Made by a program: the position numbers and the translations under genes. Below, one piece after another: positions 758 through 39,439 of a stretch of 64,000 nucleotides of DNA. The stretch lies in assembly GCA_000091205.1 (NCBI GenBank), contig AP006496.2. One strand, 5' to 3'. The notes beneath the pieces are model-generated. The model ran no database searches, had not been told where the DNA came from, and saw only the letters and a list, made by a program, of their open reading frames with translations. Origin of the DNA: Cyanidioschyzon merolae (lineage: Eukaryota). Each line of letters begins with the position of its first letter. Positions within the stretch are counted from its first letter, which is position 1.

Positions 758-2188
758 TCAGCCTGACTGGTCGGCAAGTGAGCCTTTCTGTGGCAAATTG
801 ACAAACGGCAGCAACGTCTCGCCACCAAGGTACGGTTGCAGGACTGCCGGAACCTCCACCCCGTTCTCTCGCTGATAATTTTCCACAATACAGCATATTA
901 CTCTGGTGGTCGCGCACAGAGTGCTGTTCAGCATGTGCACAAACCTCTTTTCGCGGTCACCGCCCTTTTTCATACCGTAACGAGTGAGCAGCCTACGAGA
1001 CTGGTAATCCGTGCAGTTCGAGCAGCTGACGAGCTCGCGCCACGCCTTGCTGGCAGGGTACCAACCCTCGAGATCGTACTTTTTCGAAGCGGCGTTATTA
1101 AGCGCTCCACTGACAATGCTCACGATTCGGTATGGTATTCCCAGGGATTGGTAGAACTCTTCCGCGTTCCCCAGGAGGCGTTCGAGCATCTCCCAAGAGG
1201 CCCCGTCCAGTGGAGATGTCACCGCAAACTGTTCTATTTTCTCAAACTGATGCACTCGGAAAATTCCCAGCTGGTCGCGTCCATGAGCGCCGGCCTCTTT
1301 CCGGAAACAGGTCGAAAACCCTGCGTACAATAGTGGCAATGTCGACGGATCCAGCCACTCGTCAGTGTGGTAGGCACAAATTGGCTGCTCCGAGGTCGCG
1401 ATCAGATAGTATTTGTCGTCTTCGGCCGCGGCTGCCGTTGCATTCGTGCCGCCAGTTCCGGAGCTTTCTGGTTCGCCCGCTGCGGCTCCGCGAGAGCGAA
1501 CGGTCACCTTGTACAACTGCTCGTCAAAGTCAGAGAGCTGCGCACAGCGTGCCATCGCATCACTTGTCATAAAATATGGTGGTTGCATTTCACGAAAGCC
1601 GCGTTCTCGTAAAAAGTTCAACGCATACTGCACAAGCGCGAGGTTGAGGCGAACGCCAGGGCCTATCAGAAAGTAGCCCCGGCTTCCGGCAACGCGAGCT
1701 CCGCGCTCGTAGTCTGCAGCGCCGAGTGCCAACAGGAGCTCTACGTGGCTACGGTGTGCGTTCTTCACGCGTTCATCAGCGAGTTCTGGATAGCCCCAGA
1801 GACGCTCGACTCGATTGTCCGCCTCGTCCACAGAAACAGGCACACTTTCATGCACAAGGTTACCGATCTCACGCAGTAAAGCATCCCGCTCCTGCTCTAG
1901 AGCAGCGGCCTCTCGTTCCGCCGCTGGTATAGAACGCTTCAAGTCCGCTACAGACGAGATGAGCTCGCTCGCATCTGCACCAGACTTGATGAGGCCACTT
2001 ACCCGTTTCGAGGACTCGTTCAGTTCGCGCCTGAGCGCGTCCACCCGAAACTGGGCCTGCCTCCAGCGCTCGTCCAACTCAATGACGCGATCCACGAGCT
2101 TCACGTCCGCAAACCGACGGCGCTGCGACTCTCGAACCAGCTCGGGATTGCCACCCTGTTCCGCACGAAAAAGACGAATGTCTAACAT
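758..2188 (-). CDS. seryl-tRNA synthetase (class II aaRS), single exon
   Basis: ORF track 758..2200. Residue 1 is a GTG codon (cac at 2198-2200). The first ATG is residue 5, giving MLDIRLFRAEQGGNPELVRESQRRRFADVKLVDRVIELDERWR, the canonical SerRS N-terminal coiled-coil start. Class-II catalytic-core segments FRKEAGAHGRDQLGIFRVHQFEKIEQF and GWYPASKAWRELVSCSNCTDYQSRRL are present. Confidence 0.9.
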   Translation of the reverse strand: MLDIRLFRAEQGGNPELVRESQRRRFADVKLVDRVIELDERWRQAQFRVDALRRELNESSKRVSGLIKSGADASELISSVADLKRSIPAAEREAAALEQERDALLREIGNLVHESVPVSVDEADNRVERLWGYPELADERVKNAHRSHVELLLALGAADYERGARVAGSRGYFLIGPGVRLNLALVQYALNFLRERGFREMQPPYFMTSDAMARCAQLSDFDEQLYKVTVRSRGAAAGEPESSGTGGTNATAAAAEDDKYYLIATSEQPICAYHTDEWLDPSTLPLLYAGFSTCFRKEAGAHGRDQLGIFRVHQFEKIEQFAVTSPLDGASWEMLERLLGNAEEFYQSLGIPYRIVSIVSGALNNAASKKYDLEGWYPASKAWRELVSCSNCTDYQSRRLLTRYGMKKGGDREKRFVHMLNSTLCATTRVICCIVENYQRENGVEVPAVLQPYLGGETLLPFVNLPQKGSLADQSG

Positions 2189-2649
2189 AACACCAGCCAC
2201 AGTGACCTATACACACGCTAAACGCGCTCGTAACCGAGAGTTCAGTGTGGTGCAGCAGCGACAGTGGCAACGATGATCATCCCGAATGACTGGACTGGAG
2301 CTGGGAGCGGCGAAGCGCAGCGACGCCTCGAGTCGACGATGCGGGTGCGTTGAGGCCCTGCGGCTGGGGCTCACTCCAAAAAACAAAAAGACGACGACAC
2401 GTCCACACCGGGGGGTAGGCCTTAGTAGTGGGTGCTGGTCAGGCGTTCGGCACCGTTCCTAGATCGCTCAAGATCATTCTTTTATGGTCCTTATTTTCCA
2501 GGTGATGCTTTTCTGTGCGGTGCAATGCTGCCGATAAGTACGTGCTCTTCGTTACAGCTGGGCACAGACATTGATACCTCATCTGACTGGGATAGAGATC
2601 AGAGACGGTCACCGTAAACGGCAGTGCTTTCCTTGATATCGCTCACTGA

Positions 2650-3195
2650 GAGTCCCATAAACGCATCAAGAAAGCTTATCCTTTCAGTCGTATAGAGGTA
2701 AGCAAGCTCATTGAAAGCTCCATACAAGCTCCATAAAAGCTTATCCCTTCAATCGTATAGAGATAGGCAACCTCATTGAAAGCTCCTTCAAAGTTAATCC
2801 CTTCAATCGTATAGAGATAGGCAACCTCATTGAAAGCTCCGTAAAAGCTTATCCCTTCAATTGTATAGAGGTAAGCAAGCTCATTGAAAGCTCCATATAA
2901 GCTCCATAAAAGCTTATCCCTTCAATCGTATAGAGATAGGCAACCTCATTGAAAGCTCCTTCAAAGTTAATCCCTTCAATCGTATAGAGATAGGCAACCT
3001 CATTGAAAGCTCCGTAAAAGCTTATCCCTTCAATCTTATAGAGATTGGCAAGCTCATTGAAAGCTTATCCCTTCAGTCGTATAGAGGTAAGCAAGCTCAC
3101 TGAAAGCTTCTTCAAAGTTAATCCCTTCAATCGTATAGAGATAGGCAACCTCATTGAAAGCTCCATACAAGCTCCATAAAAGCTTATCCCTTTCG
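2650..3195. repeat. minisatellite of 58-61 bp units, about 9 copies, with a higher-order ~185-bp period (3 superunits), in the divergent SerRS/TIM50 intergenic region
   Basis: Direct reading shows the unit aagcttatcccttcaatcgtatagagataggcaacctcattgaaagctcc plus variable linkers (gtaa, ttcaaagtta, atacaagctccata). The block 2704-2893 recurs almost exactly at 2893-3082. Confidence 0.9.
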
Positions 3196-3351
3196 TTCTA
3201 CGATTTTTTTCGGCCGTCTGCGCGGGAGCGCTTCGATCCCTCCTCCACAGCAGCGACGTTCAAGGCAGGCTGCGAACGTCACCAGGTGCCTTGTTCAGAG
3301 CGTTCGCGGACCCACCCTTGTGCGGTCCACTTCGAGTGGCTTTCGGGGGAC

Positions 3352-4566
3352 ATGCTTGTAGATCGATACGCGGGTTTGCGTGCCCTACGGCCAATAGGGT
3401 CCGCGTTGCTCCGGCCTGGGCGCGTGCTCCGGTGTCTCACCTCGGGCAACGGTGGCCGCGCAGCTGGTGAAGCAGGGTCAAAGCCGACCTCGGGGCCGAT
3501 CCACCCAGAAGAGGGAGCAGCGGCAGCCTCGGATGGCGCGGCAGAGTCCAAGCGCCCACAGCACTCGCGATGGAGAGCTCTCTTTCGACCTGGACGTCTT
3601 CTCGGCTTCGTTGCGCTTGGCTCAGCCGCGACAGTGCTGACTTTCTGGGTCGTCGACCCCGAGGGAACGGTAGCACGTCTCGAGCGGCTACGGCACGAAT
3701 TGGAGTCGCGCATCCGCTATTACGTCGAGCCTAGTCGAGAAAAGCTCCTACCGGACCCAGTTGCTCCGTTTCCCGGCAGTCTGCCGCCACGAACGTTGGT
3801 CCTGGATCTCGACGAGACCCTTGTGCACTCAGACTGGACGCGATCGACGGGGTGGCGAACCTCAAAAAGGCCGGGCGTAGACGCCTTTCTGGCGTACATG
3901 GCGCAGTTCTACGAGATAGTGGTCTTCACGAGCGCCCTTCCCGGCTATGCGGATCCCATTCTAGACAGGATGGATCCAAACGGGTACATCACGCACCGCC
4001 TGTATAGGCATGAAACCAAATACCGCGACGGCCTGCACATGAAGGACCTTGCCAAGCTCAACCGCGATCTACGACGCACCATCATCATCGATAATGACCC
4101 TCGAGTATTCGCGCTGCAATCCGAGAACGGCATCGAAATCGCCCCGTGGAACGGCACTGACCCCGACGACAAGGAGTTGCTTCGTCTTACTGCATTCCTC
4201 GAATGGGTCGTTCGCAACGATGTCGCTGATGTACGACCGATCATCGCCACCGTTCGGAACTGTGATCGGACGACAAGCCGCAGCTTTGCCGAGCGGTTTG
4301 AGGCCTGTCGCCAGCAGGTCGAGTCCGTCCTTGCGTCACAGAAGCTCGCGGCAGTAGCCGGAGCGGCAACCGCGTCTTCAAGTTCCGCGGACGGTCATCT
4401 ATCGGGCAACGGTGTGCGCGCTCCTGTTCGAGGTCTGGGGATCTTCGCCATTCCACGCCGCGATCCCGCTGAGCAGTCAGCAACTACAACATCCGAGGCA
4501 TCTTCGCCAGCGGCTCCAGCGCAGCCGGTTCCTGATCAGAGTATCTGGACTCGTTTGCGACGATAG
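3352..4566 (+). CDS. mitochondrial import inner membrane translocase subunit TIM50 (FCP1/NIF phosphatase-like domain)
   Basis: Track ORF 3154..4566 begins with a TTG inside the minisatellite. The first ATG is residue 67 (MLVDRYAGLRALRP...), an Arg-rich presequence-like N-terminus followed by the TM segment LLGFVALGSAATVLTFWVV. The FCP1-homology motif LVLDLDETLVHSDW...IIIDNDPRVFALQSENGIEIAPW is typical of TIM50. Confidence 0.85.
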   Translation: MLVDRYAGLRALRPIGSALLRPGRVLRCLTSGNGGRAAGEAGSKPTSGPIHPEEGAAAASDGAAESKRPQHSRWRALFRPGRLLGFVALGSAATVLTFWVVDPEGTVARLERLRHELESRIRYYVEPSREKLLPDPVAPFPGSLPPRTLVLDLDETLVHSDWTRSTGWRTSKRPGVDAFLAYMAQFYEIVVFTSALPGYADPILDRMDPNGYITHRLYRHETKYRDGLHMKDLAKLNRDLRRTIIIDNDPRVFALQSENGIEIAPWNGTDPDDKELLRLTAFLEWVVRNDVADVRPIIATVRNCDRTTSRSFAERFEACRQQVESVLASQKLAAVAGAATASSSSADGHLSGNGVRAPVRGLGIFAIPRRDPAEQSATTTSEASSPAAPAQPVPDQSIWTRLRR

Positions 4567-5940
4567 AGCTTTCACGAACTTTCAGATCGGAAGCGAGTCA
4601 TGCGAAAAGTTTGCGCTTTGCGTCCCCGTATCGAGCTGGTGAGTTCGCTGCGGCACGCGACGCGTCTGTGTTTTTTCTCGGGGGCGCGGGGCAAGCGTCT
4701 AGGATTGTTTACACGAATAAGAGAATCCGTCGTTGTGCGATGGATATCAGCATCAAGGAGAGCAGCAGCGATCATTGCGGAATTCAGACGTCCACGTACC
4801 TCGAATCACCACTAGCCACACTCTTCATCGCGTATAATGGATCGTTCATACGGTCGCCCAGGTGCCGAGTGCGTTCTGTGAGCGTCCAGTGTGACGCCTT
4901 TAGAGCCGGTGCAGACGCCGCACGCAGATAGAGCGGCTTTTGCGTACCACTGAGGGCGTTGGCTCTAGAACTGTCATCTAGTCGAGTGCAGGTACAGCGC
5001 GCTCGTTTCTGCCGCGACGAGCGCGCTCCTTTCGGGAACTCTGTCTGCACGCTTGCAGGTGCTGCCCAGCCTACGGAAGCTAGATATCATGAAGGGACGA
5101 TTTCGCACTTGATCATCACGCTGGTGGATGAGATTTTGCGAGACTTTGCTTTCCAGCGGGCGTCGCTGTGCATCTGGGTCTGGCGCTGCCCCAAGACTTG
5201 ACGAGGCGTCACATATGGCCGTGGTAGCTCGCCGCTGGAGCATCCACGCAATAGGAGTATGCTAGGGAGATGGCGGTAAAGGCACACCTCAGCCCGAGGG
5301 GCATTGTCGAGAGGGCTCGTCCACATCCATGTCAGAGGACGTTCATGTTTGCCATTTCGTGTTTATGCCAGTGGCGGCAGAGATGCATGACTGGGCGAGT
5401 CTCTTCAAACGACAAGGTTCGCGTGGCCTGCCGTGTAACGACAAGCGCCTGATTACACGAGTCACCAGAGGTTCCGCACCTGGCGACTCCCAACACGCAC
5501 GTGCACGAGTGGTACACCCGCATCCTCCGGGCAAACAAAGCGCACAAACGCTCATTGTACCCGGGTGTGCAGGGGCAGCAGCCGCGGTCACACGCACTCG
5601 GTGCAGTGAAACAGCGCAGGTTTCCTGTACCTGAGCGATACACCCAGAGATGGCTCTTATCGTGCGAGACAAATATCTTACGAACTCCATGTGATCAGCA
5701 AAGTACGCAAGGAAACATGGGGCACCTAGGCTCCGGGCGAAGGCCACTCAGCCGCCTCAGCGGGTGTCTTTGCCGGGGCGTCTTCCCTCGACGGAACGCA
5801 GCGTCTATTCGCATTCACCGGCACGACACCCTATTGAAGAGAAGCGCTCGCGTAGGCTCCACGCCGATAACACTCGTGATAATGTCAACGGCTGCGCAGC
5901 TAATAGCCCAGTAATGTGTGCCGCACCTGGCTCCGCTGTG

Positions 5941-6615
5941 CTACCTCTTCACCTCTATCTGCCAGAGGTCGACGTCGATGTCCACGGCACGTTCCCTATG
6001 AAACACGTACGTTGCGGGGAGATCGAAACGCAAGCGAGCGTACACCTGGGCCGTACACCCGAAACGCTCCAGCCTCCTCGATAAGTAACTGCGCGTGCTC
6101 GACTTGTGCAGAGAGTACACAAATCGGCGACTCAAGTGACATGCTACATCGAGGAAGGCGATGTCGGCGGATCGTTGTCGCGTTCCAAAGGGCGGATTAA
6201 GCACAGCGACGTCGAATGACTTTGGTGCCAATGCCAACGAGTTGGGCTGGACGTCCACCGCAGCAAACTCCAAGACTGCTCCGACGGACTGGGGACACAG
6301 TTCCCAGAGCGCTGCCGCATTGGCCCGTGCCAGCTCCAGGGCCTCGCTATCGACGTCCACTCCGAGCACGTGGTTGAGTCCAGCGAGACACAGTGCAAGA
6401 GCGAGTATTCCAGTCCCGGTGCCGAGGTCCACTGCCTGCACTGACCTCCGCTCATCTTCGTCGATGCATAGGGCAACATGGTGGGCGATTCTTGCCGCCA
6501 GATGAACCGGTGTCGTGTACTGCTCCAGGTGCACACGCGGGGACTGGAACTGGCGCCACGGAAGCTGTGAAAGCAGCGTCTCGATCTCACGAACGCTCGG
6601 CACCGAGCCACGCAT
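5941..6615 (-). CDS. METTL5-like N6-adenine (rRNA m6A) methyltransferase, Rossmann fold
   Basis: Residue 1 of the track ORF is GTG; the first ATG is residue 9. The protein aligns end-to-end with METTL5-type proteins: LEQYTTPVHLAARI, the SAM motif VDLGTGTGILALA, the catalytic NPPFG, and YSLHKSSTR...DIDVDLWQIEV. Confidence 0.8.
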   Translation of the reverse strand: MRGSVPSVREIETLLSQLPWRQFQSPRVHLEQYTTPVHLAARIAHHVALCIDEDERRSVQAVDLGTGTGILALALCLAGLNHVLGVDVDSEALELARANAAALWELCPQSVGAVLEFAAVDVQPNSLALAPKSFDVAVLNPPFGTRQRSADIAFLDVACHLSRRFVYSLHKSSTRSYLSRRLERFGCTAQVYARLRFDLPATYVFHRERAVDIDVDLWQIEVKR

Positions 6616-7109
6616 CCCAGTTCGGCAGACTTTCAGCACGCTGCGATGCCGAGTACACGTCGCTCGCAGGGCCTAGCAGGTCCGCTCCTTAAAGCCTACG
6701 CAGCGCACGCTCCAACACGCTGTTCCAGCGGACCTGTGGTTGTAATTCGGGCTTGCGGGGTGTGTCGCCCCGCTGCCGACGGTCGGTCCAGCTGCTTGTA
6801 GCACCCCCGCTACCTCCGTGGAAGCTGTTTTTCCTGCCAGCGGCGGGCGTTTGAATGAATCGTCGATAAAACACTGTCCCAGGCGCGTCGCAGTGCTCCC
6901 CAGCTGACGAGCACCCGAAGCCATTTCTGTTACCCGATGCGTCGCAGCGCTTTCGTATGGACCATCGGCGCGTTTGCTTCTAAGATGAGCATAGAGCGAA
7001 TAGATAGACTCACTCACACGCTTTCCGCAGGACTTATACGAGCGGGTGCCTGCTATGGGCTTTCACTCTCATCTTGTTCACTTCGAGTCTGAGAGGCTGG
7101 CCCGGAAAG

Positions 7110-8340
7110 TTGGCTCAAACCAGCTCCTTGGGTCTTCTACTGAGCACTGTATGTCGTCTAATGTTCATAGCAGCGTTGAAGTCTGGGATCACGAACTGGA
7201 TGCGTTTATTGTCTCTTATTAAACTCACCAATGCAAGGATCCCTCGAAATGCTGCCCTCGGTGCCATTTGGTGCTCCATCACCTCTCCAAGGTTTCCTAT
7301 TCCCAAAGTGCTCCGTTGCCTTCTCTCCATCTCGACGTTATGAAGGATACACCCCAGCACATCCATTAGATTTTTTAAACACATTTCTTTATGCCCCTAG
7401 GTGACGACCTTATAGGAGCGCGTAGGACTTGCGGAAGAAAGACGTCATGTGTCTCTGTGTACCACCGTGTTCTGAACGCTTCAGTGATTCGCCTAGTGGC
7501 GCGATCTTTACTTTTCACAATAGGAAACACTTCTTCAATGTGGTTGAACCGGAAGCGTACTGACGAATGAAATGCAGCCCTACTCCGGTAGAATTGGGCA
7601 AGGCTTCAATGCGAGGGGAATGGTGAAATTCCAAAAAGTCGAACAGAAGAACACAGCCAGACGTCAGGGAATCGTCTTCAAAGATTCTACGATGTGAAAA
7701 CTGTTGTATGAGCGTTCTCTGGAGTCGAAACTGAGGCCGCAAAAGAAATCCACTGCAGCTGGAGTAGAGAAATTCTTATGTATTTTCGATATCGATTGTA
7801 TATCCAACGGGCGCCCCTCATCGCGAATACTCATATCCACTGTGACGGTTCTGTGTGGAGCAAATCTCGTGGAATGAAAAAAACAACGTTCTTGTGGCTC
7901 ATAGCCGGCGCGATGTTTCAGGGACTGTGTTCTAGTCGCCATTTCGTTCGGACATGGCTGTGAACGATCTAGGACATTTTATGTGACTGTATGCCACTGG
8001 TTTCAGGACCATACGAAAAAGCTGTAGACAAAAACAGTCACCGGTGATGGCTGCTATCGTCGCTTTTTGTTCCCGCAAAGTCGGCAACGGGTCGTGTTCT
8101 ATCACTGACCTCATGCACGCGTCGAGAATATCCGTTTCTTTTCGCGGAGTTCATCTAATTCTTTCTCTAGTGTTCCTCGACCGTTTGAGTGTTGTTCCAT
8201 GACTGACATCAAGAATCAATACAGATCTCCTTCAAATATCCAGTATATAATATATCCTACATGAAATTCGACTTCGATATATACAGTATATTACAACGTG
8301 ATTCCCATCTCTTGCTATACATCGCAGATCGTGTCGAGTA
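7110..8340 (-). mobile_element. decayed, frameshifted copy of a transposon family carrying a Fanzor/TnpB-like gene (relic copy 1)
   Basis: Minus-strand fragment VIPDFNAAMNIRRHTVLSRRPKELV (7115..7384) matches the RuvC-III region [21 protein letters not shown] of the intact gene at 23223..24395. Upstream (7470-7560, minus strand) the fragment FRFNHIEEVFPIVKSKDRATRRITEAF resembles the Tc1/mariner C-terminal motif DLNPIENVWSILK. About 70% nucleotide identity to 31870..33190 in the same order and orientation. Confidence 0.65.
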
Positions 8341-8577
8341 ACCATGGGTTGAAAGCCTAAAAGATCGCGGATCGCAATCCCACCACCACCGTTCTGCTGT
8401 CTGGATCGCCGAGTCGCGAACGCTGTGGAGCCACGCTGTTCAGGGACACGTGGCAGATATCGAATGCTGCTGCTCCTCTAGCTCACGCATAGGTTGAGGC
8501 TATTTCGTAGCGCGGGCTGCCCCCAGGCAGTTGTGCTTTTCCCACTACCAGCAACATTGGAAAGTGATCGACGCGAG

Positions 8578-8795
8578 AAGCTTGTACAGTGGGGGATTGG
8601 GGGAGCGATTGTGCGTTTTCTGTAGACAGTAACTCTGGAAGCTGCTCAGCGAAAAAGCTTGTACAGCGGGGGACTTTGCAGCGATTTTGCGTTTCTCCAG
8701 AACAACAACTGCGAATGCCGCTAAGTGAGGGAGGCTTGTACAGTGGGTTCCGCGCAGTTCGCGGCTCGTTCGGCGGATGCCTGCAATGGGTCCGG
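8578..8795. repeat. 78-80 bp degenerate tandem repeat x3 overlapping the BCAT 5' end
   Basis: Units begin with aagcttgtacag(t/c)ggggga at 8578, 8655 and 8733. Confidence 0.8.
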
Positions 8796-12308: not shown

Positions 12309-12442
12309 TACGCTATGTCGACCGTTTGCAAGGTTGGCTATATGAAGCGCTCACGCTGTACCTTGATCTGCAGTTAAACTGCGGTCGACCGTTTGCAAGG
12401 CTGGCTACGGGAAGCGCTCGCGCTCTACCTTGATCTGCAGTT
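12309..12442. repeat. 67-bp tandem repeat x2
   Basis: gtcgaccgtttgcaagg(t/c)tggcta...ccttgatctgcagttaaactg is read twice. Confidence 0.8.
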
Positions 12443-12811
12443 AAACTGTATTCATAAATCACTCTCACTGGAAGATGCGCTGCGAGCCGTTTGACAGCGA
12501 CGGCTTCCACTAGCATCGACCGATGCTGTGGACGTCCCATGGCCGGCGGAATCAGGTGTCTAAAAGTGACACACAAGGGGCGCTGGTAGCCAGCGTTCTC
12601 GGGTTCACAAGTGCTCCCGATATCGCAGCGTGCATGCTGCAGTGAAGCACGCTGCTCTTCCTGGTGTGTGTGCCGCTCGCGTCGGAGACCGTGCGATAGG
12701 CGCAAGGTCGTCAGCAAATCCCACAGGAATGCCGCTTTCTGAGCGTCGCGCGGATATGCCACTTGTTTAGGTGTGGCCCCGGCTTAAAAGGCGCTACCCA
12801 TCTATTTTATA

Positions 12812-13015
12812 GTGTATAGGATAATCGGGGCTAAGATAGGATCTCCAAGAATGCATTTGAAACGCGGTATCCGTCTCAATGGTGTAGGATAATTCAAGCT
12901 AAGCTGGGATCCCCAGGTGCGCGTTTGAAACGCGGTATCCGTCTTAATGGTGTAGGACAATCGAAGCTATACTAGGATCCCCGACTACGCGCTTCAACCG
13001 CACCACCAGTGCCGT
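12812..13015. repeat. ~68-bp degenerate tandem repeat x3
   Basis: gtgtaggataat...ggatcc...tttgaaacgcggtatccgtct(c/t)aatg is read three times. Confidence 0.75.
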
Positions 13016-16347: not shown

Positions 16348-19300
16348 TGTCACACATGGAAACCACATCCAAAATAAACACCAGAGGAGACGAGGACTCT
16401 CGAATTCGGGAAGGGAGTCGACCGCGCTCTGGATGGCTCTGCTCAGGAACACGTAGTGCTTCAAGATGGAATGTAGGTAGGTAGATATCACGTCTCAATT
16501 ATACATCGGATACGACGTCCGCTGGTCCGAGGCAGAGAGCAACACGATGAGCTTGGACAGCATGAAGCGTCTCTTGCTCTCGTTAACGCATCTCTTTGAA
16601 CTTCGCGACAAACTCCATCTCGTCCGTAGCCAGCAAGCCACTTGCCTACGTCCGCACCCGAAGAATCCCTTCATGTAATCCTCACTGTTCTGAGCCTCAA
16701 TAGTGACGCTATAATGACCACAGCGTGCGCTTCATGAAGCCCCGGTCATTGGCTTGAACATGGTTTTGCTTGTTGAGGTTGTTTTGAAACTTTCTGGCAA
16801 CTGCGGCGTACATGTTCCGATGGATGATGTGTAACGGCGAGGCGTCGGGGTAGTTTTGGAAGCGTGTGTACAAATCTCTAATCCTATGAACAAGCCGAAT
16901 GGCATCTTCTATCCGAAGCATCCGTTGCTGCAAGGAGGTTTGACAGAAGATTTCCTGAGGAATGCGGACAACTGGCAGCCCAGCGTCCGCAGCGCCCCTG
17001 AGCAGTTGCTTGGCGAGGTGTGTCAAGGAGAGGTAAGCATGGCGAGCTTCCGCCGAGGTGGAAGCTGCGCGAACCTCAACGGCCAGCTGCCTCATCCTTT
17101 TTGGAAGACTCACCAGCTTGATACGTTTTCTGTGGAAAGCCTCGACAACGAGTGCAGACTGATCTATCCGCTACCACAATTTTTTCTTCTTGTCCCTCCT
17201 CGCCCACTTTTCGGAAGGATCCTTCCCCTCTTCGTCTAGTGGTTTCCTCTCCCTCTCCACAAAGCGGTGTTGGTACCGATGCGGTCGATATACTTCATAT
17301 CTGTTTTTTCTCTGGGCTGAAACAGTCTCGGCGATAGATGGCAATGAAGCTCATCTATTCTGCGTGAGTGTCGATTTCTCCTGAAGCACCTCTTTGCCAC
17401 CGTATCTGCGGGCAGCGCGCTCGCGGTGCGGGGCACGCTTTCCCCTCCCTGATGCGCTCGAGCGGAGGAGCAAACCATCAGCTCAGAGCTGGTTACCATA
17501 GAAAAACACTCGTCCGAGAACGGTCGAGCGAACGACTTCTCGACTGATCTGTGAGCATGAAAGCGGAGTCTGCCGACAGAAAATTTACCTTCAACTGTTG
17601 TGGACCGAGGAGTTCAGGCTAGCACGAAGAACAGCTCACTACCTATTGCTGCAGCATACACCCAGACCGCCTTGGATCTCTACAAAGCGACGTTGTCTAA
17701 GTGCATAACAAAAGAATACGGGATGATGAAAGCACGTGGCGTGCTCCAGCGAACGATGAGATGTAGAAAGCCCGTCTCTTTGGGGATACTAAATTGAACA
17801 CACATCTGAGTCGCCGCTGGGGCTGATCTTGTCGACATTTGCGCTAGAATCTTCTGTAAGAGTAGCTTTGGCCCCATCTTCGCGTACCCGTATGCAAAGG
17901 TGTACCATTTCATCCGAGTGAAGTCGCATTGAGTGAGACGAGCTCCCTTGCTTCCAGTACAGAGTGTTCGATTTCCAGCACGAAATGGAGAGTATACTGC
18001 ACAACAAGCTATCCTCTCTCAGAGACGCACGTTTCTCTGTTGTTTATCTACCCTTCGTCACCTTTCGCATCTAAGGTCCCAAAAATTCACATCCCGTAGC
18101 TTCTCTGGAAGCTTTTCTGAGAGAAATACGCAGTGGAACAGACTGACGAAGAGATTAACCTGTCCATAGAGTTTGTTACGTTCTGTTCTAGGCACACGAC
18201 GTATAATGCTTGTTCTCCGAGAAGGATGGTTCATCCACCTGCTGCCCTGTGAGTGACCGACGTGCTCCATTAAGGCCGCCTTTCGTAAGCTCTCCGTGAG
18301 CATAAAGAGTCTTTTCGCGACTTTTGTCCGATCTACATGATACATTCCTTGTATTGGATAAGTGCAAGAAAAACAAACAAAATCGGAAAGGGCGTGCTGT
18401 TACAGGTACGCCAGAATTTACTGCCAAAGTGCACATGCTGTTTCAGTTCGTTTTCGCCCCGGCGCGCGAGCATATCGATCTTGCAACTGTCCAACGATGT
18501 AGATGCACTCATTTTCGACGCGAAGTGCAAAGAAAATGCGTACTGTTCGGAACAAGCCAACCTACAGTGAACGTAAAGCCAACGAGGGAGCCGCTCTGAA
18601 TCACATCGTGCAGCCTCGGCGTGAAAGAAACGAGAGGGGCGACGTCCCGATTCCGTATCTTGTGCATACGATCGAACTACTCCGACGCGTGGTATACGGC
18701 TCTTCATGCTCTGTCAGTGGCCTTCGTGCAGGAGAACGAACAATCTTGAAAGAGATTAGATCGAAGTATTCTCCGGAATAGGCCCTAAACAAATCGGTAC
18801 GCAGTCTATCCGCAGCATCTATCGAGCAACGTGTGCTGTACCTGATCATCCTCTGGTGCGGCTTGTGCTGGAGATGCGCAGCACTCTCGCGGCGTCCGCC
18901 ATAAAGTTCTGCTTTGAGCGCTTCTAGATATATCCTCGACAATGGAGCACCATGCCCACCGCGCGAGTCTCAATGGCACGTGAATGCCTCTCAGCCGTAC
19001 TGAATGTCCACTGCTGCCTACCACACAAATCCACTAACCAACTTGCGAGCTAAGGCCATAGGTGAAGGCCCGCGCTTCACTGGCATGTAATGCCGTGCCG
19101 AGGCAATCATCAAAAGGGGCGCCACTCGCGCGTTCTGCCCCGCTTCAGTGCGCTCCACCGCGCCGAAAAGCAACTCAGCGAGTACACGGTCAACCGATTG
19201 CGGAGATCTCTTCGTCGGCACAAGCCAGTGCTCGTGAGGCGGAGTCTCAATTTTAGGGCCCCATTTGGGCCCATAAAACGGCGAACTCTAGATATTGGAA

Positions 19301-21064: not shown

Positions 21065-21148
21065 GGGGGGCTGGCGCAACGGTAGCGCGTTTGACTCCAG
21101 TCCGCAGTGGCGATCAAAAGGTTATCGGTTCAAATCCGGTGTCCCTCA
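21065..21148 (+). tRNA. tRNA-Trp (anticodon CCA) with a 12-nt intron one nucleotide 3' of the anticodon
   Basis: Manual cloverleaf. Acceptor GGGGGGC (21065-21071) pairs with GTCCCTC (21141-21147, two G:U pairs). D-stem GCGC/GCGC with loop AACGGTA. Anticodon stem TTTGA (21090-94) pairs with TCAAA (21114-18), and the loop is CU-CCA-G with an intron tccgcagtggcg (21101-21112) at the canonical 37/38 position. Variable loop AGGTT. T-arm ATCGG-TTCAAAT-CCGGT. Discriminator A; no encoded CCA. Confidence 0.6.
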
Positions 21149-22678
21149 CATTTTGCAAGCTCGTGCCGCTTTGGCACTAGAGGTACTGCACTACGCAGCA
21201 AGACGCTCGGGGACACTTCCTGCGGTTCGCAGCCTCAGAGCTGTGTACCGCGCATACTGCACTCAATGGAGTTGTTAGCGGGGGCGACTAACGCTCCAGA
21301 GGTTGCTTTCGTTGCTACGGTCTAGGCTTGCTGAAACTGACCAGACTCGCTCGGGTGCGCGAACGTTACCAGCGGTCAGTTTAGAAACAGTCGTTTCGCT
21401 GCGGACGCTTGGACCTTCCGCCAGCCACGGTACTGTGAAATGCCCACGGCATAGAGGCTTGTTCGACCCAGTGAACAACCGGGAGCCAAGCTATCTTAGG
21501 CACCTGCTTCAATGTTGTTGCGTAGAGCCTGACTCCTCCGGTTGTGCGAGAGCAGCCAATAACTAGTGGAGGGAGCAGCTCTGCTCTCCAGATGCGTCTG
21601 CGTTCCAGTGGCCCAAAACTTTTCTTTCCATTGGGGCATGGTTTTCAATCGATCCAGCGGCATGTGTCCGTATAGCGCCGCGTCTACCGATACTACTTGC
21701 TCCGAGGTTGGATGCGACGCCACCACGGTGACCGCACTGGAACAGAGCAGCCCCGCCGTGCCATTGCGGGTGTCGGGCCGAAGCTCTTAAACCAAATGCC
21801 CTCGGGCAGAATCCGCAGGGCCCCTGGATCTGCAAGAATGCTGAAGGGAAACGCACTCGCGAGGCCGCTTCGACGGCAGCGCGGCAAGCGACTCGGACAT
21901 GACGTCGAGTGGCCAGCCTTCAGTGACGCGCCCTGTCCGTGGCTGGGTATCCAACGCGGCAGCGCCAACCCTGCAAACCCCGGACAGCGCTCGGGTAGCA
22001 CACGCGTCACTGTGATTCTACGTATGTATCCAAATGCGCTCGGGGTTGCCAAAACCCGCAATATCCATCCGCGCTCGGTAACACGGCTGCATCGAAACGC
22101 GCGCGTTGCCTAGTCCTGAATCTTTGAAACACCTGAACCTCGTCGCGGGCTGAGAGCTAATGAAAGCGCCGCGCAACGCCTAGGAACTTGTTCCCCATTC
22201 TGACTTTCGGTATTTAGTGTGTGCTGCTCCACCCCGGGGCCGCTGTACACAACCATCCTTTCTGTCCAGCCGAAGACGCATTGCCTTCGATGTGATCGCA
22301 ATAAAGCACTGGAATACAAAGGGAAAGCAGCAGCAGCAGCAGATGATGGTGACCGTGTTCAACGTCTAACAAAGTTTCCTCATGCCTTTACTGGAGCTTT
22401 CACTGCACACGGCGAGGGATATGTGGGCGCCCCGTCAGCGTGCCCGTCTGGCTCAGCTACTAGCCCTCGCACGGGACGCATGATACCGTTGGAGTTTAGA
22501 TCGACGCTACACCATTGCAATGCAGCAACAGCCGCTGTCTATTACACTGAAATTTACCTGGTCTCAAAACCGTATCCCACTTTCCGCACGATGGACATAT
22601 ACTACAAGCGCGTTTCTGGTAGCCGTATATTTGACAAGGGTGCTTTCCTGGCACGAAAAAAAGTAATGAACAGAGTTC

Positions 22679-25634: not shown

Positions 25635-28343
25635 TTAGACATTTCCCGGGCGAGATTCGGAGCAGGCCCAGATGCGTCCAGTGCTGACATCCTGAAGCAG
25701 CTGTTGAACAGCATGGAGAACACGCGGACTTGTTGCGTGGGCTTGATTGGGACTACCAGCTGCAGCGGTGCTCGCCACGATACCAACCTGGCGCACGATA
25801 TGCTGCAGTCGCACATAGCGCCTCGCAGGGCATGCATCGCGTATAGGGAGCTGGAGCGTCGCAGCGCTTTCCAGAGAGGCCTCCGGTGGAAGCGCTCGCG
25901 CCTGCAGAAAGCGCCGAATCTTTCGTGCACGGGAGAGGATGGCGTCGGGCATCCCGTTCGCGCGGGCACAGGCCAGCGCGTAGGAGTCCAAGCAGGGCGC
26001 CCCTTCAGACAACTTGTACAGCGCGGTCAAGACCACGTCGTCGTTCTGATCTGGAGCATCACCGGTCTGGCGGTTTTCCTGCACGAGCACTTCAAGTTTG
26101 AAGAAGCGCAGCCGCGAGTTCGCGTGAGCTTGCGCGTAGAGTGTCCCGGTCACCTCATGGAAATGGGTCGCAAATAGCACCGTCATTTGCCCCGTGACGT
26201 TGGTTGCCAACTCTGAAAGCACCGCTGCCGCAAGTGCCCTTCCGTCTTCATCGGAAGTGCCTTTGCCGAATTCGTCAACAATAGCGAGCGACCTGGAAGT
26301 GGCGTACCTGAGCGTCTGCGCCATTTGGATGCAATCGTTCATGAATGTTGATGTCTCGCGGCCGGTGGAATCGAAACTCTTCACTCGGGCAAATATCCGG
26401 TCGGTCACGCCGATTCGGGCGCTACGCGCCGGCACGTAGGAGCCAACCTGTGCCATGTGTACAATCAACGCAACTTGGCGCAGAAGCACGCTCTTGCCGC
26501 TTGCGTTTGGCCCTGTGACGACACAGACATCCCCGCGCCTAACAGAGAGACTGTTAGGAACGAAAGAGTCCACGGTGAGCTCTTGAATCGGGTGGCGAGC
26601 GTCGATTACGTCGATGTGACAGGCTGATTCTGCCCCGAGGACTTGTGGACAAGTCCACTCATAGCGCATCGCAGAGAGGGCGAAGCTGAGCCAACAGTCG
26701 ATCTCTGCCAGCAAGTCGCATGTGCGACTAAGCACTGGTATCGTGGGTATCACGGCGGCCTCGAGATCTCGAATGATGCTCTTCTCGAGGTCGTTGATGG
26801 CCCCGGGCAGATCACCGAGCTCCTCATCGAGCTGACGCGTTCTGTCGTTCTTCACATATGCATCAGTATCGGTGTCGAGCGCGTGCTCCAGAGAGGCATC
26901 GGATTCCATCTGGGCAGCGTCTGAGCGGGAGATCTTCATCACATAGCCGAGGCGCGGATGAAACTGTACACAGATCGACCGCTCCGTGGCGGACGACCCA
27001 AAATACCTGCTCTTCTCCGATTGAGCCACGCTCTCGAGAAAACTGTCCAGAGATTCAAGGGCTAATCTCATATTATCAAGGTTTTCATCAAAGCCGGTCT
27101 TGACGGCTGGATTCCAGCCCGACTTGGATCCACTCATGTCGATACATGCCCCGATTCGTGTCGCGACGCTTGTGTACCATTCCGGGTCGAGCACGGGTGT
27201 CAACTCTTGCGCATTTTCTTGCAGAAAAGCGCTTCTCTCGCGCCAAACAGGCAACACGATTTGAACCAAGTCGGAGAATCCATTAAAGAGCCCCGCGACT
27301 GCCACGTTGCATCCGTGGAGCGCTGCCCAGTCTTCCGCAGTCGCTGCGCCCGAAACCAAGCGCCTCCAAAGATTTTGTGGATGATGCACAGCTTTCAGGA
27401 GCTTTCTGAACAATATCATGTCGATGCTGGCCAAGGCGCCGGCCAGGGCCTGAACCACTTCGAGACGCTCTCGAATGCGCGCAGGGTCACAGATTGGCTG
27501 CGTTAGAATCTCGCGGATTTTTCTCTGTCCGGGCGCCGAGGCCCCGAAGCTGCTAATGATCTGGTAAAGCGTGAGCCCGTGTTGATGGACTCGAGCGCCT
27601 GACCTAGGCGCGGAAACCTTGGCCGGTAGGACCCTCAGTTCTCGCAGAAGACTCATCGGCGATATAGCTAATTGCTCCATATAAAAGGGCTCTGCGCGTA
27701 CGGTGTGGATATCAACATCACAGCGCATCGCTAGAAACGACAGCAGCGCCCCTAGGCAGGTCTGCCCGACCGGCCCCTGATCATCCAATGGTGCTCGCCG
27801 GTCCGGAGACGAGCTCCCGCTTACATCTACGCTCAATTGATGCTGAGCGAAGGCGTCTACAGGATTTTGCCACCAGCGAATAGTTTCTTCTATGCGCTGA
27901 GGCGCGACATCATCCGCGGCGAGAAGAACCAGCGGCCCGCCGCCATCAGCGAGTTCGAGGCAATCGCCCAGTCCACCGGAAACGGCGGTGAGTCTTTCAG
28001 CGGGGAAAGCTTCGATTTGCTGGACTTCGCTGCGGTGCATGTCGCGGACAGCCTGTGACGCTACCCGCGTTAGCATCGCCCTGAACTCGTCGATGGCGTT
28101 TGCGGGGGTTAAAATAAGGTTCGGCTCGATCGCTCGAAGGGTGCGCTCGGTTTGCGAAAATGGCGCCGAGTCTCCTATCTCACAAAAGCGTATCACAAGC
28201 GATATCGTCGAGCACCATGCAATGCCAACACGCTGCTTCCGCACCGTCGTCATAAGGAAGATCTCTTCGCCTCCGTCAGTCTCATCGATCAAACTCTGAC
28301 GGGTTGGGGCTCCGCAACCCAGAGAATGCATAGTCGAGCTCAT
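25635..28343 (-). CDS. MutS homolog of the MSH4/MSH5 type (no domain-I mismatch-binding region)
   Basis: ATG start, 902 aa. Walker A is TGPNASGKSVLLRQVAL, Walker B is DEFGKGTSDEDG, the ABC signature region is STFMND, and the C-terminal segment THFHEV is present. The N-terminus begins with a connector-like segment (GIAWCSTISLVIRFCEI) rather than a mismatch-recognition domain. Confidence 0.8.
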   Translation of the reverse strand: MSSTMHSLGCGAPTRQSLIDETDGGEEIFLMTTVRKQRVGIAWCSTISLVIRFCEIGDSAPFSQTERTLRAIEPNLILTPANAIDEFRAMLTRVASQAVRDMHRSEVQQIEAFPAERLTAVSGGLGDCLELADGGGPLVLLAADDVAPQRIEETIRWWQNPVDAFAQHQLSVDVSGSSSPDRRAPLDDQGPVGQTCLGALLSFLAMRCDVDIHTVRAEPFYMEQLAISPMSLLRELRVLPAKVSAPRSGARVHQHGLTLYQIISSFGASAPGQRKIREILTQPICDPARIRERLEVVQALAGALASIDMILFRKLLKAVHHPQNLWRRLVSGAATAEDWAALHGCNVAVAGLFNGFSDLVQIVLPVWRERSAFLQENAQELTPVLDPEWYTSVATRIGACIDMSGSKSGWNPAVKTGFDENLDNMRLALESLDSFLESVAQSEKSRYFGSSATERSICVQFHPRLGYVMKISRSDAAQMESDASLEHALDTDTDAYVKNDRTRQLDEELGDLPGAINDLEKSIIRDLEAAVIPTIPVLSRTCDLLAEIDCWLSFALSAMRYEWTCPQVLGAESACHIDVIDARHPIQELTVDSFVPNSLSVRRGDVCVVTGPNASGKSVLLRQVALIVHMAQVGSYVPARSARIGVTDRIFARVKSFDSTGRETSTFMNDCIQMAQTLRYATSRSLAIVDEFGKGTSDEDGRALAAAVLSELATNVTGQMTVLFATHFHEVTGTLYAQAHANSRLRFFKLEVLVQENRQTGDAPDQNDDVVLTALYKLSEGAPCLDSYALACARANGMPDAILSRARKIRRFLQARALPPEASLESAATLQLPIRDACPARRYVRLQHIVRQVGIVASTAAAGSPNQAHATSPRVLHAVQQLLQDVSTGRIWACSESRPGNV

Positions 28344-28479
28344 CTGTTCGATTACTTACTTTGACTCGCCGCCGACAGTGATCTCGGCTGAGCAAGAACC
28401 GGTAACCCTGCACAGAACCTGGAAAATTCTCGTCACCAACCAGATCAGGGGGCTCCTCTGAGTCCAGCACAAAACGCAC

Positions 28480-39412: not shown

Positions 39413-39439
39413 GGCAAGAGCTTCGAACGATAGCTATCC

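What the first reader, a model, noticed from the sequence alone, without database searches (positions are those of the whole stretch)
2650..3195. Higher-order minisatellite fills the bidirectional promoter between SerRS and TIM50
About nine 58-61 bp units are organised into three ~185-bp superunits. They occupy almost the whole ~1.16-kb interval between two divergently transcribed essential genes. The repeat is stop-free in the TIM50 frame, which is why the ORF caller started TIM50 inside it.

The array may act as a length-variable regulatory module, possibly repeated transcription-factor sites, or a nucleosome-positioning array.
Basis: seen in the sequence. Interest (0 to 1): 0.5.

Follow-up and report, generated by a model that had tools for sequence, protein, structure and literature searches.

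The report
Variable minisatellite upstream of algal TIM50
The repeat is a real, three-level tandem repeat (minisatellite) in the gap between the seryl-tRNA synthetase and TIM50 genes of the red alga Cyanidioschyzon merolae, but it is species-specific, differs between strains and shows no sign of a specific function, so it is an ordinary piece of fast-evolving spacer DNA.

Summary
The window is Cyanidioschyzon merolae 10D; both flanking proteins match NCBI entries exactly.

- **Array:** window 2671-3195 holds nine full units of 65/54/54/65/54/54/43/54/65 bp plus a 17-bp stub. It is nested: an 11-nt sub-repeat, a 43-nt core with 0-2 spacer modules, and a 173-bp three-unit superunit. Superunits 1 and 2 differ at 4 of 173 positions.
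- **Errors in the finding:** the array fills 45% of the 1163-bp spacer, not nearly all. It has 16 stops in the TIM50 frame. Only its last ~50 bp are open, which is why mechanical ORF calls start at TTG 3154. The real start is ATG 3352.
- **Specificity:** the unit occurs nowhere else in the window or in the public collections scanned.
- **Comparative evidence:** four related Cyanidiophyceae keep the gene order but lack the array. One carries an unrelated 72-bp x3.5 array in the same spacer.
- **Population evidence:** environmental C. merolae-like assemblies carry 1 to 9 units with different unit variants.
- **Negative tests:** no helical periodicity, RNA structure, Rfam match or shared motif was found.

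Best reading: a locally born, near-neutral VNTR upstream of TIM50. A possible transcript across it is unresolved. Interest is low.

The parts
2641..2670 (+). Degenerate partial unit at the left edge of the array. It is a trace of the local sequence from which the array grew.
   Evidence: Window 2641-2663 aligns to the unit's 3' part with 17 of 23 identities; 24 of 500 shuffles score as well.
2671..2843 (+). Superunit 1 (173 bp), made of units 1-3: type A 65 bp (2671-2735), type B 54 bp (2736-2789), type C 54 bp (2790-2843).
   Evidence: TRF period 173; unit table.
2844..3016 (+). Superunit 2 (173 bp), made of units 4-6 (65/54/54 bp). It is a recent duplicate of superunit 1.
   Evidence: It differs from superunit 1 at 4 of 173 positions, and units 5 and 6 are identical to units 2 and 3. 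Six-unit versions lacking exactly one superunit occur in L014, L015/L029 and L028.
3017..3178 (+). Rearranged third block (162 bp). Unit 7 is the 43-bp core alone, unit 8 is an A-type core with a B-like spacer (54 bp), and unit 9 is a C-type core with an A-type double spacer (65 bp).
   Evidence: Unit table and mismatch matrix.
3179..3195 (+). Truncated tenth unit (AAAGCTTATCCCTTTCG) that merges into unique DNA.
   Evidence: Its first 14 nt are identical to a unit head; 1 of 500 shuffles scores as well.
2189..2640 (.). Unique part of the spacer on the SerRS side. The SerRS promoter is presumed to lie here.
   Evidence: No repeat found. SerRS-bearing environmental contigs end at 2253-2358 in one series of assemblies.
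3196..3351 (+). Unique 156 bp between the array and the TIM50 start codon. It is the presumed core promoter or 5' leader.
   Evidence: It is identical between strain 10D and L027 and contains no ATG.
3154..3351 (+). Spurious N-terminal extension of the TIM50 ORF, running from TTG 3154 inside unit 9.
   Evidence: ORF list; 470-aa gene calls in JGI and ENA data; no counterpart in orthologues; in-frame TAG at 3142.
758..2188 (-). Cytosolic seryl-tRNA synthetase gene, 476 aa.
   Evidence: Exact match to BAM81283.1 / XP_005537319.1; Pfam Seryl_tRNA_N and tRNA-synt_2b; best match among solved structures is the chain 6gir_A, 'Serine--tRNA ligase, cytoplasmic', E = 1.8e-174.
3352..4566 (+). TIM50 gene, 404 aa.
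   Evidence: Exact match to BAM81284.1 / XP_005537320.1, named 'mitochondrial presequence translocase subunit Tim50'; Pfam NIF.

Best explanation
The feature is a locus-specific, AT-rich minisatellite (VNTR) in Cyanidioschyzon merolae.

**How it formed (inferred from the anatomy).** It arose where it sits by successive rounds of replication slippage and unequal exchange or gene conversion.
1. An 11-nt motif (AAGCTCCATAN) multiplied.
2. A 43-nt core carrying 0, 1 or 2 copies of that motif multiplied, giving units of 43, 54 and 65 bp.
3. A three-unit block of 173 bp was duplicated.

**Where it sits (shown).** It ends 156 bp upstream of the TIM50 start codon and begins 482 bp upstream of the SerRS start codon.

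**What it does (inferred).** Its sequence is not under long-term constraint, and its length and unit content differ between closely related strains. The most likely effect is none, or at most a small, non-specific one: extra low-GC spacer DNA between the promoters of two housekeeping genes. It is not an array of specific binding sites.

The anatomy, uniqueness, lack of conservation and between-strain differences are shown. The mutational mechanism and near-neutrality are inferred.
For: **Anatomy**
- Three nested periods of 11, 54 and 173 bp.
- Superunits 1 and 2 differ at 4 of 173 positions. Neighbouring cores are 89.2% identical; cores three units apart are 95.0% identical.
- Both edges fade into degenerate partial units, which indicates local origin rather than insertion.

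**Uniqueness**
- The unit is found only at this site in the window.
- A 29-nt core pattern hit only this same locus in the metagenome collection.
- It hit nothing in the viral or prokaryotic collections.

**No conservation**
- The gene order ArgRS-SerRS-TIM50-methyltransferase-aminotransferase-TGT is kept in Cyanidiococcus, Cyanidium caldarium and two unnamed relatives.
- Their SerRS-TIM50 spacers are 739, 447, 1145 and 438 bp and lack this repeat.
- The spacers share no more 9-mers with the C. merolae spacer than shuffled sequence does.
- Without the array the C. merolae spacer would be 638 bp, within the range of its relatives.

**Turnover**
- Other minisatellites sit in other spacers of the same window: 12317-12448, 12856-12982, 37605-37888 and 39467-39880.
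- Relatives have them too: L011 11244-11473, L012 2976-3195 and 5749-5999, and L039 2572-2901 with its own nested 11-nt sub-repeat.

**Polymorphism**
- Spanning contigs carry 9 units (L027; the same nine-unit layout is seen in L013, whose contig starts inside the first unit), 6 (L014, L015/L029, L028), 5, 4, 3 or 1 unit. Some unit variants are absent from strain 10D.
- L027 differs from 10D at 1.7% of array positions, with 8 of the 9 differences clustered in units 1-2 like a conversion patch. Adjacent unique DNA differs at 0-1.0%.

**Negative tests for specific function**
- No 10-11-bp A/T periodicity.
- RNA folding z-scores of -0.96 and -1.23.
- No Rfam match above chance.
- No open frame.
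- No enriched unit-derived words and no similarity to other arrays.
Against: - Neutrality is inferred from lack of conservation and from variability. No expression, chromatin or fitness data were available.
- Rapidly evolving promoter repeats can still tune expression.
- The copy numbers come from short-read metagenome or metatranscriptome assemblies, which can collapse repeats, so they are lower bounds.
- All versions keep at least one unit and the same two boundary units.
- The plus strand has no ATG for 826 nt up to the TIM50 start in 10D, and none in any environmental version. This would fit a long 5' leader under selection against upstream start codons. Because 525 nt are copies of one unit, the effective length is only about 380 nt, and the test is weak.
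- Some contigs that are probably RNA-derived run through the array.
Confidence: 0.62

Rival explanations
1. Length-dependent regulatory module. Each unit carries one or more binding sites, for example the TTATCC / GATAAG-like and AGATAG words. Copy number then tunes transcription of TIM50 and/or SerRS, as described for unstable promoter repeats in yeast and for human promoter VNTRs.
For: - The array ends 156 bp upstream of the TIM50 ATG in a divergent spacer.
- It is the lowest-GC stretch of the window, 39.4% against 54.5% overall.
- Copy number appears variable.
- Four of the five intergenic arrays with period 40 bp or more in the window lie in divergent spacers, which hold 35% of intergenic bases. 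The binomial probability is about 0.05, worked out by hand from the counts.
Against: - No unit-derived 6- to 8-mer stands out in the other 28 kb of intergenic DNA.
- There is no significant similarity to the other arrays. The best case, against the 12856-12982 array, was matched by 16 of 300 shuffles, before correction for five comparisons.
- The AGATAG word is lost in A-type units, which read AGGTAAG.
- Nothing is conserved in the same spacer of four relatives.
- A one-unit version exists, if it is real.
- No TF-site library was available, so motif identity rests on recall only.
Confidence: 0.2
2. The array is transcribed and acts as RNA. It would be either part of a long TIM50 5' leader free of upstream ATGs, or the body of a polyadenylated upstream antisense RNA that starts near the TIM50 promoter and ends at about 2467.
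For: - In one series of environmental assemblies, probably JGI metatranscriptomes of the Lemonade Creek study (PMC11662350), SerRS contigs stop in unique DNA at 2253-2358. TIM50 contigs start at 2362-2467 and run through the array.
- L005 begins with ten non-templated T's joined at window 2467. An AATAAG word lies about 20-25 nt upstream on the minus strand. This looks like a poly(A) site.
- The longest ATG-free run on either strand of the window (826 nt) ends exactly at the TIM50 ATG. CAT occurs 17 times in the same stretch.
- No environmental version has an ATG there.
Against: - The RNA origin of those contigs could not be verified. Their identifiers were not found in the paper's supplements.
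- The T-run evidence comes from a single contig.
- The two lines of evidence point to opposite strands.
- The ATG-free run is largely one unit copied. Its effective length is about 380 nt, against 418 nt upstream of another gene in the window.
- No RNA structure and no Rfam family was found.
- Being transcribed would not by itself show function.
Confidence: 0.1
3. Chromatin element: a nucleosome-positioning or nucleosome-excluding array, a boundary between the two promoters, or a centromere or replication origin.
For: - The 173-bp superunit is near typical nucleosome repeat lengths.
- It is the lowest-GC spot in the window.
- C. merolae centromeres are described only as low-GC regions without a sequence pattern (bioRxiv 10.1101/096016, citing Kanesaki 2015).
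Against: - A/T content shows no 10-11-bp periodicity. The power at 10.8 bp is 0.39 against a shuffle mean of 13.2, and the dominant period is 5.4 bp.
- Only two full 173-bp copies exist, and the other arrays in the window have periods of 82 and 94 bp.
- Reported centromeres are 2-3 kb at about 48% GC, one per chromosome. This array is 0.5 kb inside a 1.16-kb spacer between two expressed housekeeping genes.
Confidence: 0.05
4. Assembly artefact or coding repeat. Either the array is mis-assembled, or it encodes a repetitive N-terminal extension of TIM50.
For: - Mechanical ORF calling and some database gene calls start TIM50 at TTG 3154 inside the array.
Against: - The same nine-unit layout appears in two independent assemblies from other sources, L013 and L027.
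- There are 16 in-frame stops, and the 43- and 65-bp units shift the reading frame.
- Orthologues lack the extension.
Confidence: 0.01

Closest known systems
Unstable tandem repeats in yeast promoters (Vinces et al. 2009, Science; cited from my own knowledge, not read here)
   Same: Tandem repeats sit upstream of genes, are AT-rich relative to the genome, differ in copy number between strains and turn over fast between species.
   Different: In yeast, effects on nucleosome occupancy and expression were measured. Here nothing functional is shown. The units here are longer (43-65 bp) and are organised in three nested levels.
Human promoter minisatellites such as the INS VNTR and the MAOA upstream VNTR (from my own knowledge)
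   Same: A minisatellite lies a few hundred bp upstream of a start codon, with length alleles.
   Different: Those have short 14-30-bp units, and their alleles are associated with expression differences. This array has no known phenotype and sits between two housekeeping genes of a haploid unicellular alga.
Higher-order repeats of satellite DNA (alpha-satellite type)
   Same: Copies of a multi-unit block are more alike (97.7%) than neighbouring units (about 89%). The block length of 173 bp happens to be near the 171-bp alpha-satellite monomer.
   Different: There are only three blocks and 0.5 kb in total, at a single euchromatic site, not at a centromere. The length match concerns the block here and the monomer there, so I take it as coincidence.
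Regional centromeres of C. merolae (Kanesaki 2015 and Maruyama 2008, as summarised in bioRxiv 10.1101/096016)
   Same: GC content is lower than the genome average, and there is no conserved sequence.
   Different: Centromeres are 2-3 kb at about 48% GC, one per chromosome, and bound by CENH3. This is a 0.5-kb repeat at 39% GC in a 1.16-kb spacer.

Membership tests
Minisatellite / VNTR | Head-to-tail tandem copies of a 10-100-bp unit | tested here: met
   TRF finds period 54 x8.1 and period 173 x2.3. There are nine in-register units of 43-65 bp.
Minisatellite / VNTR | Array sequence differs between individuals or strains | tested here: met
   Environmental contigs are about 99.2-99.8% identical to the window over their long aligned stretches, yet carry unit variants absent from 10D (for example AACGTTAATCC and CTTATCTCTTCAG) and different unit orders.
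Minisatellite / VNTR | Copy number differs between individuals or strains | tested here: inconclusive
   Spanning contigs carry 1, 3, 4, 5, 6 or 9 units. The nine-unit layout appears in three sources (one truncated in its first unit) and the 6-unit form in three contigs. All but 10D are short-read assemblies that can collapse repeats.
Higher-order repeat | Units n apart are more alike than neighbouring units | tested here: met
   Cores three units apart are 95.0% identical; neighbouring cores are 89.2% identical. Superunit 1 differs from superunit 2 at 4 of 173 positions.
Expression-tuning promoter repeat (yeast type) | Lies within the promoter or nucleosome-depleted region of a gene | not testable with these tools
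   Only the position relative to start codons is known: 156 bp from TIM50 and 482 bp from SerRS. No transcription-start or chromatin data were available.
Expression-tuning promoter repeat (yeast type) | Copy number changes expression | not testable with these tools
   No expression data per allele were available.
Bidirectional promoter | Divergent genes with transcription starts less than about 1 kb apart that share one regulatory region | tested here: inconclusive
   Divergent orientation is met. ATG-to-ATG is 1163 bp and the starts are unmapped. Contig ends hint at SerRS 5' ends near 2253-2358.
Cluster of transcription-factor sites | The unit carries a motif that recurs in other promoters or is conserved in orthologous promoters | tested here: not met
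   No enriched unit-derived word in the window's intergenic DNA. No conservation in four orthologous spacers. Power is limited to 64 kb, and no site library was available.
Nucleosome-positioning sequence | 10-11-bp periodicity of A/T-rich dinucleotides | tested here: not met
   The 10.8-bp harmonic of the unit is 0.39 against a shuffle mean of 13.2. The dominant period is 5.4 bp.
Coding repeat / N-terminal extension of TIM50 | Open reading frame through the array, continuous with TIM50 | tested here: not met
   There are 16 stops in the TIM50 frame and all six frames are closed. The extension is absent from orthologues.
Structured RNA gene | Rfam match, or folding energy clearly below that of shuffled sequence | tested here: not met
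   No Rfam match over the array. Folding z-scores are -0.96 and -1.23.
Dispersed repeat / mobile-element remnant | Copies at other loci | tested here: not met
   The unit occurs only at this locus in the window and in metagenome contigs, and not at all in viral or prokaryotic collections. The rest of the C. merolae genome could not be searched directly.
C. merolae centromere | A 2-3-kb low-GC region, one per chromosome, bound by CENH3 | tested here: not met
   Size is not met: a 0.5-kb array in a 1.16-kb spacer (for the published description). CENH3 binding is not testable here.

The most novel reading that the evidence does not exclude
Promoter-proximal minisatellites may be a general, recombination-driven feature of intergenic spacers in Cyanidiophyceae, especially divergent ones. 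They would be born and lost quickly at sites of frequent DNA breakage or exchange. The natural heterozygous diploids and sexual cycle recently reported for this group (PMC13353863) would provide the opportunity. This particular array would then be transcribed as an ATG-free TIM50 leader or an upstream antisense RNA, so that its length tunes TIM50 output.
Probability: 0.1. Interest if true: 0.5.

Novelty: new member of a known kind. Interest (0 to 1): 0.2.

Why it matters
- **Biological weight:** little, if the best explanation holds. It is one more promoter-region VNTR.
- **Strain typing:** the array is a ready-made length and sequence marker for telling C. merolae strains and natural populations apart. 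Strain 10D and the Yellowstone-type contigs differ here far more than in the flanking DNA.
- **Gene calling:** the array makes prokaryote-style gene callers add a false 66-residue N-terminus to TIM50 in metagenome data.
- **Assembly:** it is a place where short-read assemblies of this alga break or may collapse.
- **If copy number did affect TIM50 expression:** C. merolae has efficient homologous recombination, so it would be a convenient system for testing how promoter repeats tune essential genes.

Tried and rejected
1. **Coding repeat or TIM50 extension.** Rejected: 16 in-frame stops, all six frames closed, and no counterpart in orthologues.
2. **Structured RNA.** No Rfam hit at gathering score in the window other than a tRNA. 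Only a chance-level snoRNA hit lies next to the array. Folding is no better than for shuffles.
3. **Inverted repeats or cruciform in the array.** None found beyond a 9-nt pair in the left flank.
4. **Nucleosome or curvature signal.** No 10-11-bp periodicity.
5. **Motif shared with other arrays in the window or with the unrelated array at the orthologous site.** Not significant.
6. **Enrichment of unit words in other intergenic DNA.** None.
7. **Phylogenetic footprinting of the spacer.** The spacers are not alignable, and shared 9-mers are at shuffle level.
8. **Dispersed copies or a viral or prokaryotic origin.** None.
9. **Centromere.** Size and composition do not fit the published description.
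10. **Whether the Ga05065xx-66xx contigs are RNA-derived.**
    - The sample identifiers were not found in the paper's supplements.
    - No gene with an apparent intron was noticed in the window that could serve as a test.
    - A 38-bp gap in L007 and L010 is a microhomology-flanked deletion, not an intron.
11. **Polymorphism of the second large array (39467-39880).** The only contig found breaks at the array edge.
12. **Literature.** Searches for C. merolae minisatellites, promoter repeats or transcription-start maps found nothing specific.

Full report
**Source of the window.** The 404-aa protein encoded at 3352-4566 is identical to BAM81284.1 / XP_005537320.1, 'mitochondrial presequence translocase subunit Tim50 [Cyanidioschyzon merolae strain 10D]'. 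The 476-aa protein encoded at 758-2188 on the minus strand is identical to BAM81283.1 / XP_005537319.1, 'serine--tRNA ligase, cytoplasmic'. Both lie on an 852,727-bp NCBI record. Pfam and the Protein Data Bank comparison agree with these names. The window is therefore nuclear DNA of the finished genome of this thermoacidophilic red alga. Its GC content is 54.5%.

**Checking the observation.** Tandem Repeats Finder reports overlapping arrays over 2671-3195:
- period 173 x2.3, 95% matches, score 734
- period 54 x8.1, score 527
- three 11-nt micro-arrays of AAAGCTCCATA

A 23-nt core matches nine times with 3 or fewer mismatches, where shuffles give none. The nine units run 2671-2735 (65 bp), 2736-2789 (54), 2790-2843 (54), 2844-2908 (65), 2909-2962 (54), 2963-3016 (54), 3017-3059 (43), 3060-3113 (54) and 3114-3178 (65). 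A 17-nt stub follows at 3179-3195.

Each unit is a 43-nt core plus 0, 1 or 2 copies of an 11-nt spacer module. Units 1-3 and 4-6 form two 173-bp superunits that differ at 4 of 173 positions. Units 7-9 form a rearranged 162-bp block. Neighbouring cores are 89.2% identical and cores three units apart are 95.0% identical, so this is a genuine higher-order structure. Both edges fade into degenerate partial copies: 2641-2663 matches the unit at 17 of 23 positions, and 3179-3192 is identical to a unit head. This indicates growth from local sequence rather than insertion.

- Unit and superunit sizes are 43-65 bp and 173/173/162 bp, not 58-61 bp and about 185 bp.
- The array is 525 bp of a 1163-bp ATG-to-ATG spacer (45%). 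Unique DNA lies on both sides: 482 bp towards SerRS and 156 bp towards TIM50.
- The array is not open in the TIM50 frame. That frame has 16 stops within it, and every frame on both strands is closed.
- Only the last ~50 bp are open, after TAG at 3142. That is why the mechanical ORF starts at TTG 3154 and why 470-aa versions of the protein exist among JGI and ENA gene calls.
- The 66-residue extension has no counterpart in five orthologues, all of which begin near the ATG at 3352.

**Is the unit found elsewhere?** No. It occurs only here in the window. A 29-nt degenerate core pattern scanned against the metagenome collection hit three contigs, all of them this same locus. Scans of the viral and prokaryotic collections found nothing.

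**Comparison with related species.** The gene order ArgRS(-), SerRS(-), TIM50(+), methyltransferase(-), aminotransferase(+), TGT(-) is kept in Cyanidiococcus yangmingshanensis (L011), Cyanidium caldarium (L038) and two unnamed relatives (L012, L039).

| Lineage | SerRS-TIM50 spacer | Repeat content |
|---|---|---|
| C. merolae 10D | 1163 bp | this 525-bp array |
| Cyanidiococcus (L011) | 739 bp | two 30-nt direct repeats 77 bp apart, seen by eye |
| L012 | 1145 bp | unrelated 72-bp x3.5 array at 5749-5999, next to SerRS rather than TIM50 |
| Cyanidium caldarium (L038) | 447 bp | a (TC)17 run |
| L039 | 438 bp | none |

None of the relatives contains this repeat. The spacers share no more 9-mers with the C. 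merolae spacer than shuffled sequence does. Without the array the C. merolae spacer would be 638 bp.

**Minisatellites are common in these genomes.**
- The window also has arrays at 12317-12448, 12856-12982, 37605-37888 and 39467-39880.
- The last of these is a higher-order array of similar strength: 82 bp x5 built from 41-bp halves, score 779.
- Relatives have arrays in other spacers. L039 has a 109-bp x3 array with its own nested 11-nt sub-repeat.
- This array is the most AT-rich of them, at 39.4% GC.

**Population data.** The exact TIM50 protein, or close variants of it and of SerRS, are encoded on many environmental contigs. Over their long aligned stretches these are about 99.2-99.8% identical to the window. 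A study of Lemonade Creek, Yellowstone, describes a 'C. merolae 10D-like isolate' there, with metagenomes and poly-A and RiboMinus metatranscriptomes sequenced at JGI (PMC11662350).

| Units | Contigs that cross the spacer |
|---|---|
| 9 | L027 (same 65-54-54-65-54-54-43-54-65 layout); L013 shows the same layout but starts inside unit 1 |
| 6 | L014, L015/L029, L028 (exactly one 173-bp superunit fewer) |
| 5 | L005 |
| 4 | L002 |
| 3 | L003, L009, L010, L037 |
| 1 | L006 |

Several carry unit variants that 10D lacks. L027 differs from 10D at 9 of 525 array positions. Eight of these cluster in units 1-2, where a B-type core is replaced by an A-type core, which looks like a conversion patch. 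Adjacent unique DNA differs at 0-1.0%. Sequence polymorphism is therefore certain. Copy-number polymorphism is probable, but all these assemblies are short-read and could collapse repeats.

**Tests of specific functions.**
- **Nucleosome positioning or curvature:** the A/T pattern of the unit has almost no power at 10.8 bp (0.39 against a shuffle mean of 13.2). The dominant period is 5.4 bp.
- **Structured RNA:** folding z-scores are -0.96 and -1.23, and there is no Rfam family.
- **Repeated factor sites:** no unit-derived 6- to 8-mer is prominent in the other 28 kb of intergenic DNA, and there is no significant similarity to the other arrays. A site library was not available.
- **Centromere:** published C. 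merolae centromeres are 2-3 kb at about 48% GC with no pattern, which does not fit a 0.5-kb repeat in a 1.16-kb spacer.

**An unresolved lead: is the array transcribed?**
- Contigs of the Ga0504770-77 series (which include 20-kb contigs) end at 2539 or at the array's left border and start at its right border (L019 ends at 2691; L021 and L022 end at 2539; L001, L031 and L032 start at about 3071).
- Several contigs of the Ga05065xx-66xx and Ga0556xxx series (many small assemblies, probably metatranscriptomes, though I could not verify this) break in unique DNA instead.
- In that series, SerRS contigs end at 2253-2358. TIM50 contigs start at 2362-2467 and run through the array. Others of the series start inside the array.
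- L005 starts with ten T's that are not in the genome, joined at 2467. An AATAAG word lies about 20-25 nt upstream on the minus strand, as at a poly(A) site.
- The plus strand has no ATG from 2526 to 3351. These 826 nt are the longest ATG-free run on either strand of the window, and the run ends exactly at the TIM50 start. CAT occurs 17 times in the same stretch.
- No environmental version has an ATG there.
- Because 525 nt are copies of one unit, the effective length is about 380 nt. That is comparable to the 418 nt upstream of the TGT gene, so this is suggestive only.
- The two hints point to opposite strands. Transcription would not in itself show function.

**Conclusion.** The array is a real, hierarchically organised, locus- and species-specific minisatellite. 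It was generated in place by slippage and unequal exchange or conversion, it varies between strains, and it has no detectable signature of a specific function. I commit to 'near-neutral VNTR upstream of TIM50' at about 0.62. A copy-number-dependent regulatory effect stands at about 0.2, and a functional transcript at about 0.1. It is a new example of a well-known kind of sequence. It is useful as a strain marker and as a warning for gene calling and assembly, but it is not surprising.

Noticed in passing
window 39467-39880: A second higher-order minisatellite: 82 bp x5 at 98% matches, built from 41-bp halves, TRF score 779. It starts 55 bp upstream of the ATG (39412) of a minus-strand CDP-alcohol phosphatidyltransferase gene, in a 1.4-kb divergent spacer. 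The mechanical ORF 39330-39965 (minus strand) over it has no Pfam hit and is probably spurious. The one environmental contig found (L026) breaks at the array edge.
   Followed up: partly
window 37605-37888: A 94-bp x3 array whose first copy overlaps the last ~90 nt of the asparaginase gene (36766-37695, plus strand). The repeat therefore duplicates the 3' end of a coding sequence.
   Followed up: no
window 12317-12448 and 12856-12982: Two separate two-copy repeats (67 and 68 bp) in the 2.1-kb divergent spacer between the TGT gene and a linker-histone gene. L001 aligns across both, and L014 across the first, without a length change, so unlike the SerRS-TIM50 array they look stable. The second shares a 20-nt stretch (TATCCGTCTCAATGGTGTAG) loosely with the TIM50 array core; 16 of 300 shuffles score as well.
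   Followed up: partly
L012 5749-5999; L039 2572-2901; L011 11244-11473: Related Cyanidiophyceae carry their own, unrelated minisatellites in spacers of this syntenic block. L012 has a 72-bp x3.5 array in the same SerRS-TIM50 spacer, 123 bp from the SerRS ATG. L039 has a 109-bp x3 array (100% matches) with a nested 11-nt sub-repeat between ArgRS and SerRS.
   Followed up: partly
window 2496-2592 (+): A C/D-box-snoRNA-like arrangement just left of the array: UUCCAG-GUGAUGC ... CUGA-CUGGGA with a 6-bp terminal stem. The Rfam sR9 hit is at chance level (19 bits, E = 0.78). My box scan finds only this candidate with a 6-bp stem in the window, against 0.4 expected from shuffles, so it is weak. A second, weaker candidate lies at 17723-17826 (+).
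   Followed up: partly
L005 1-10, joined at window 2467: Ten non-templated T's at a contig end, with an AATAAG word about 20-25 nt upstream on the minus strand. This may be a poly(A) site of a minus-strand RNA that runs through the array and ends about 280 bp before the SerRS ATG. It is a single contig, and its RNA origin is unverified.
   Followed up: partly
window 2526-3351 (+): The longest ATG-free run on either strand of the 64-kb window (826 nt) ends exactly at the TIM50 start codon. It is also ATG-free in all environmental versions. Across 31 predicted genes the median distance to the nearest upstream ATG is about 110 nt, against about 66 nt expected from ATG density.
   Followed up: yes
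window 5348-5385: A 38-bp deletion polymorphism in L007 and L010 in the TIM50-methyltransferase spacer. It is flanked by CATG microhomology and is not a GT-AG intron.
   Followed up: partly
window 21065-21149 (+): A tRNA-Trp (CCA) gene of 85 nt that matches the full 71-position Rfam tRNA model. The extra ~13 nt suggest an intron or insertion.
   Followed up: no
window 25635-28343 (-) and 28282-29046 (-): A MutS-family gene with domains III, IV and V but no N-terminal domains I and II, the pattern of the meiotic MSH4/MSH5 type. It is preceded by a 254-aa ORF in another frame that has no Pfam hit and overlaps low-complexity repeats at 28479-28749.
   Followed up: no
window 6616-8714: A 2.1-kb divergent spacer containing the second-lowest GC stretch of the window (41.7% at 7501-8401). 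Probable RNA-derived contigs end at 6770-7490 within it. By size it is closer than the TIM50 array to the published description of C. merolae centromeres, but nothing else points that way.
   Followed up: no
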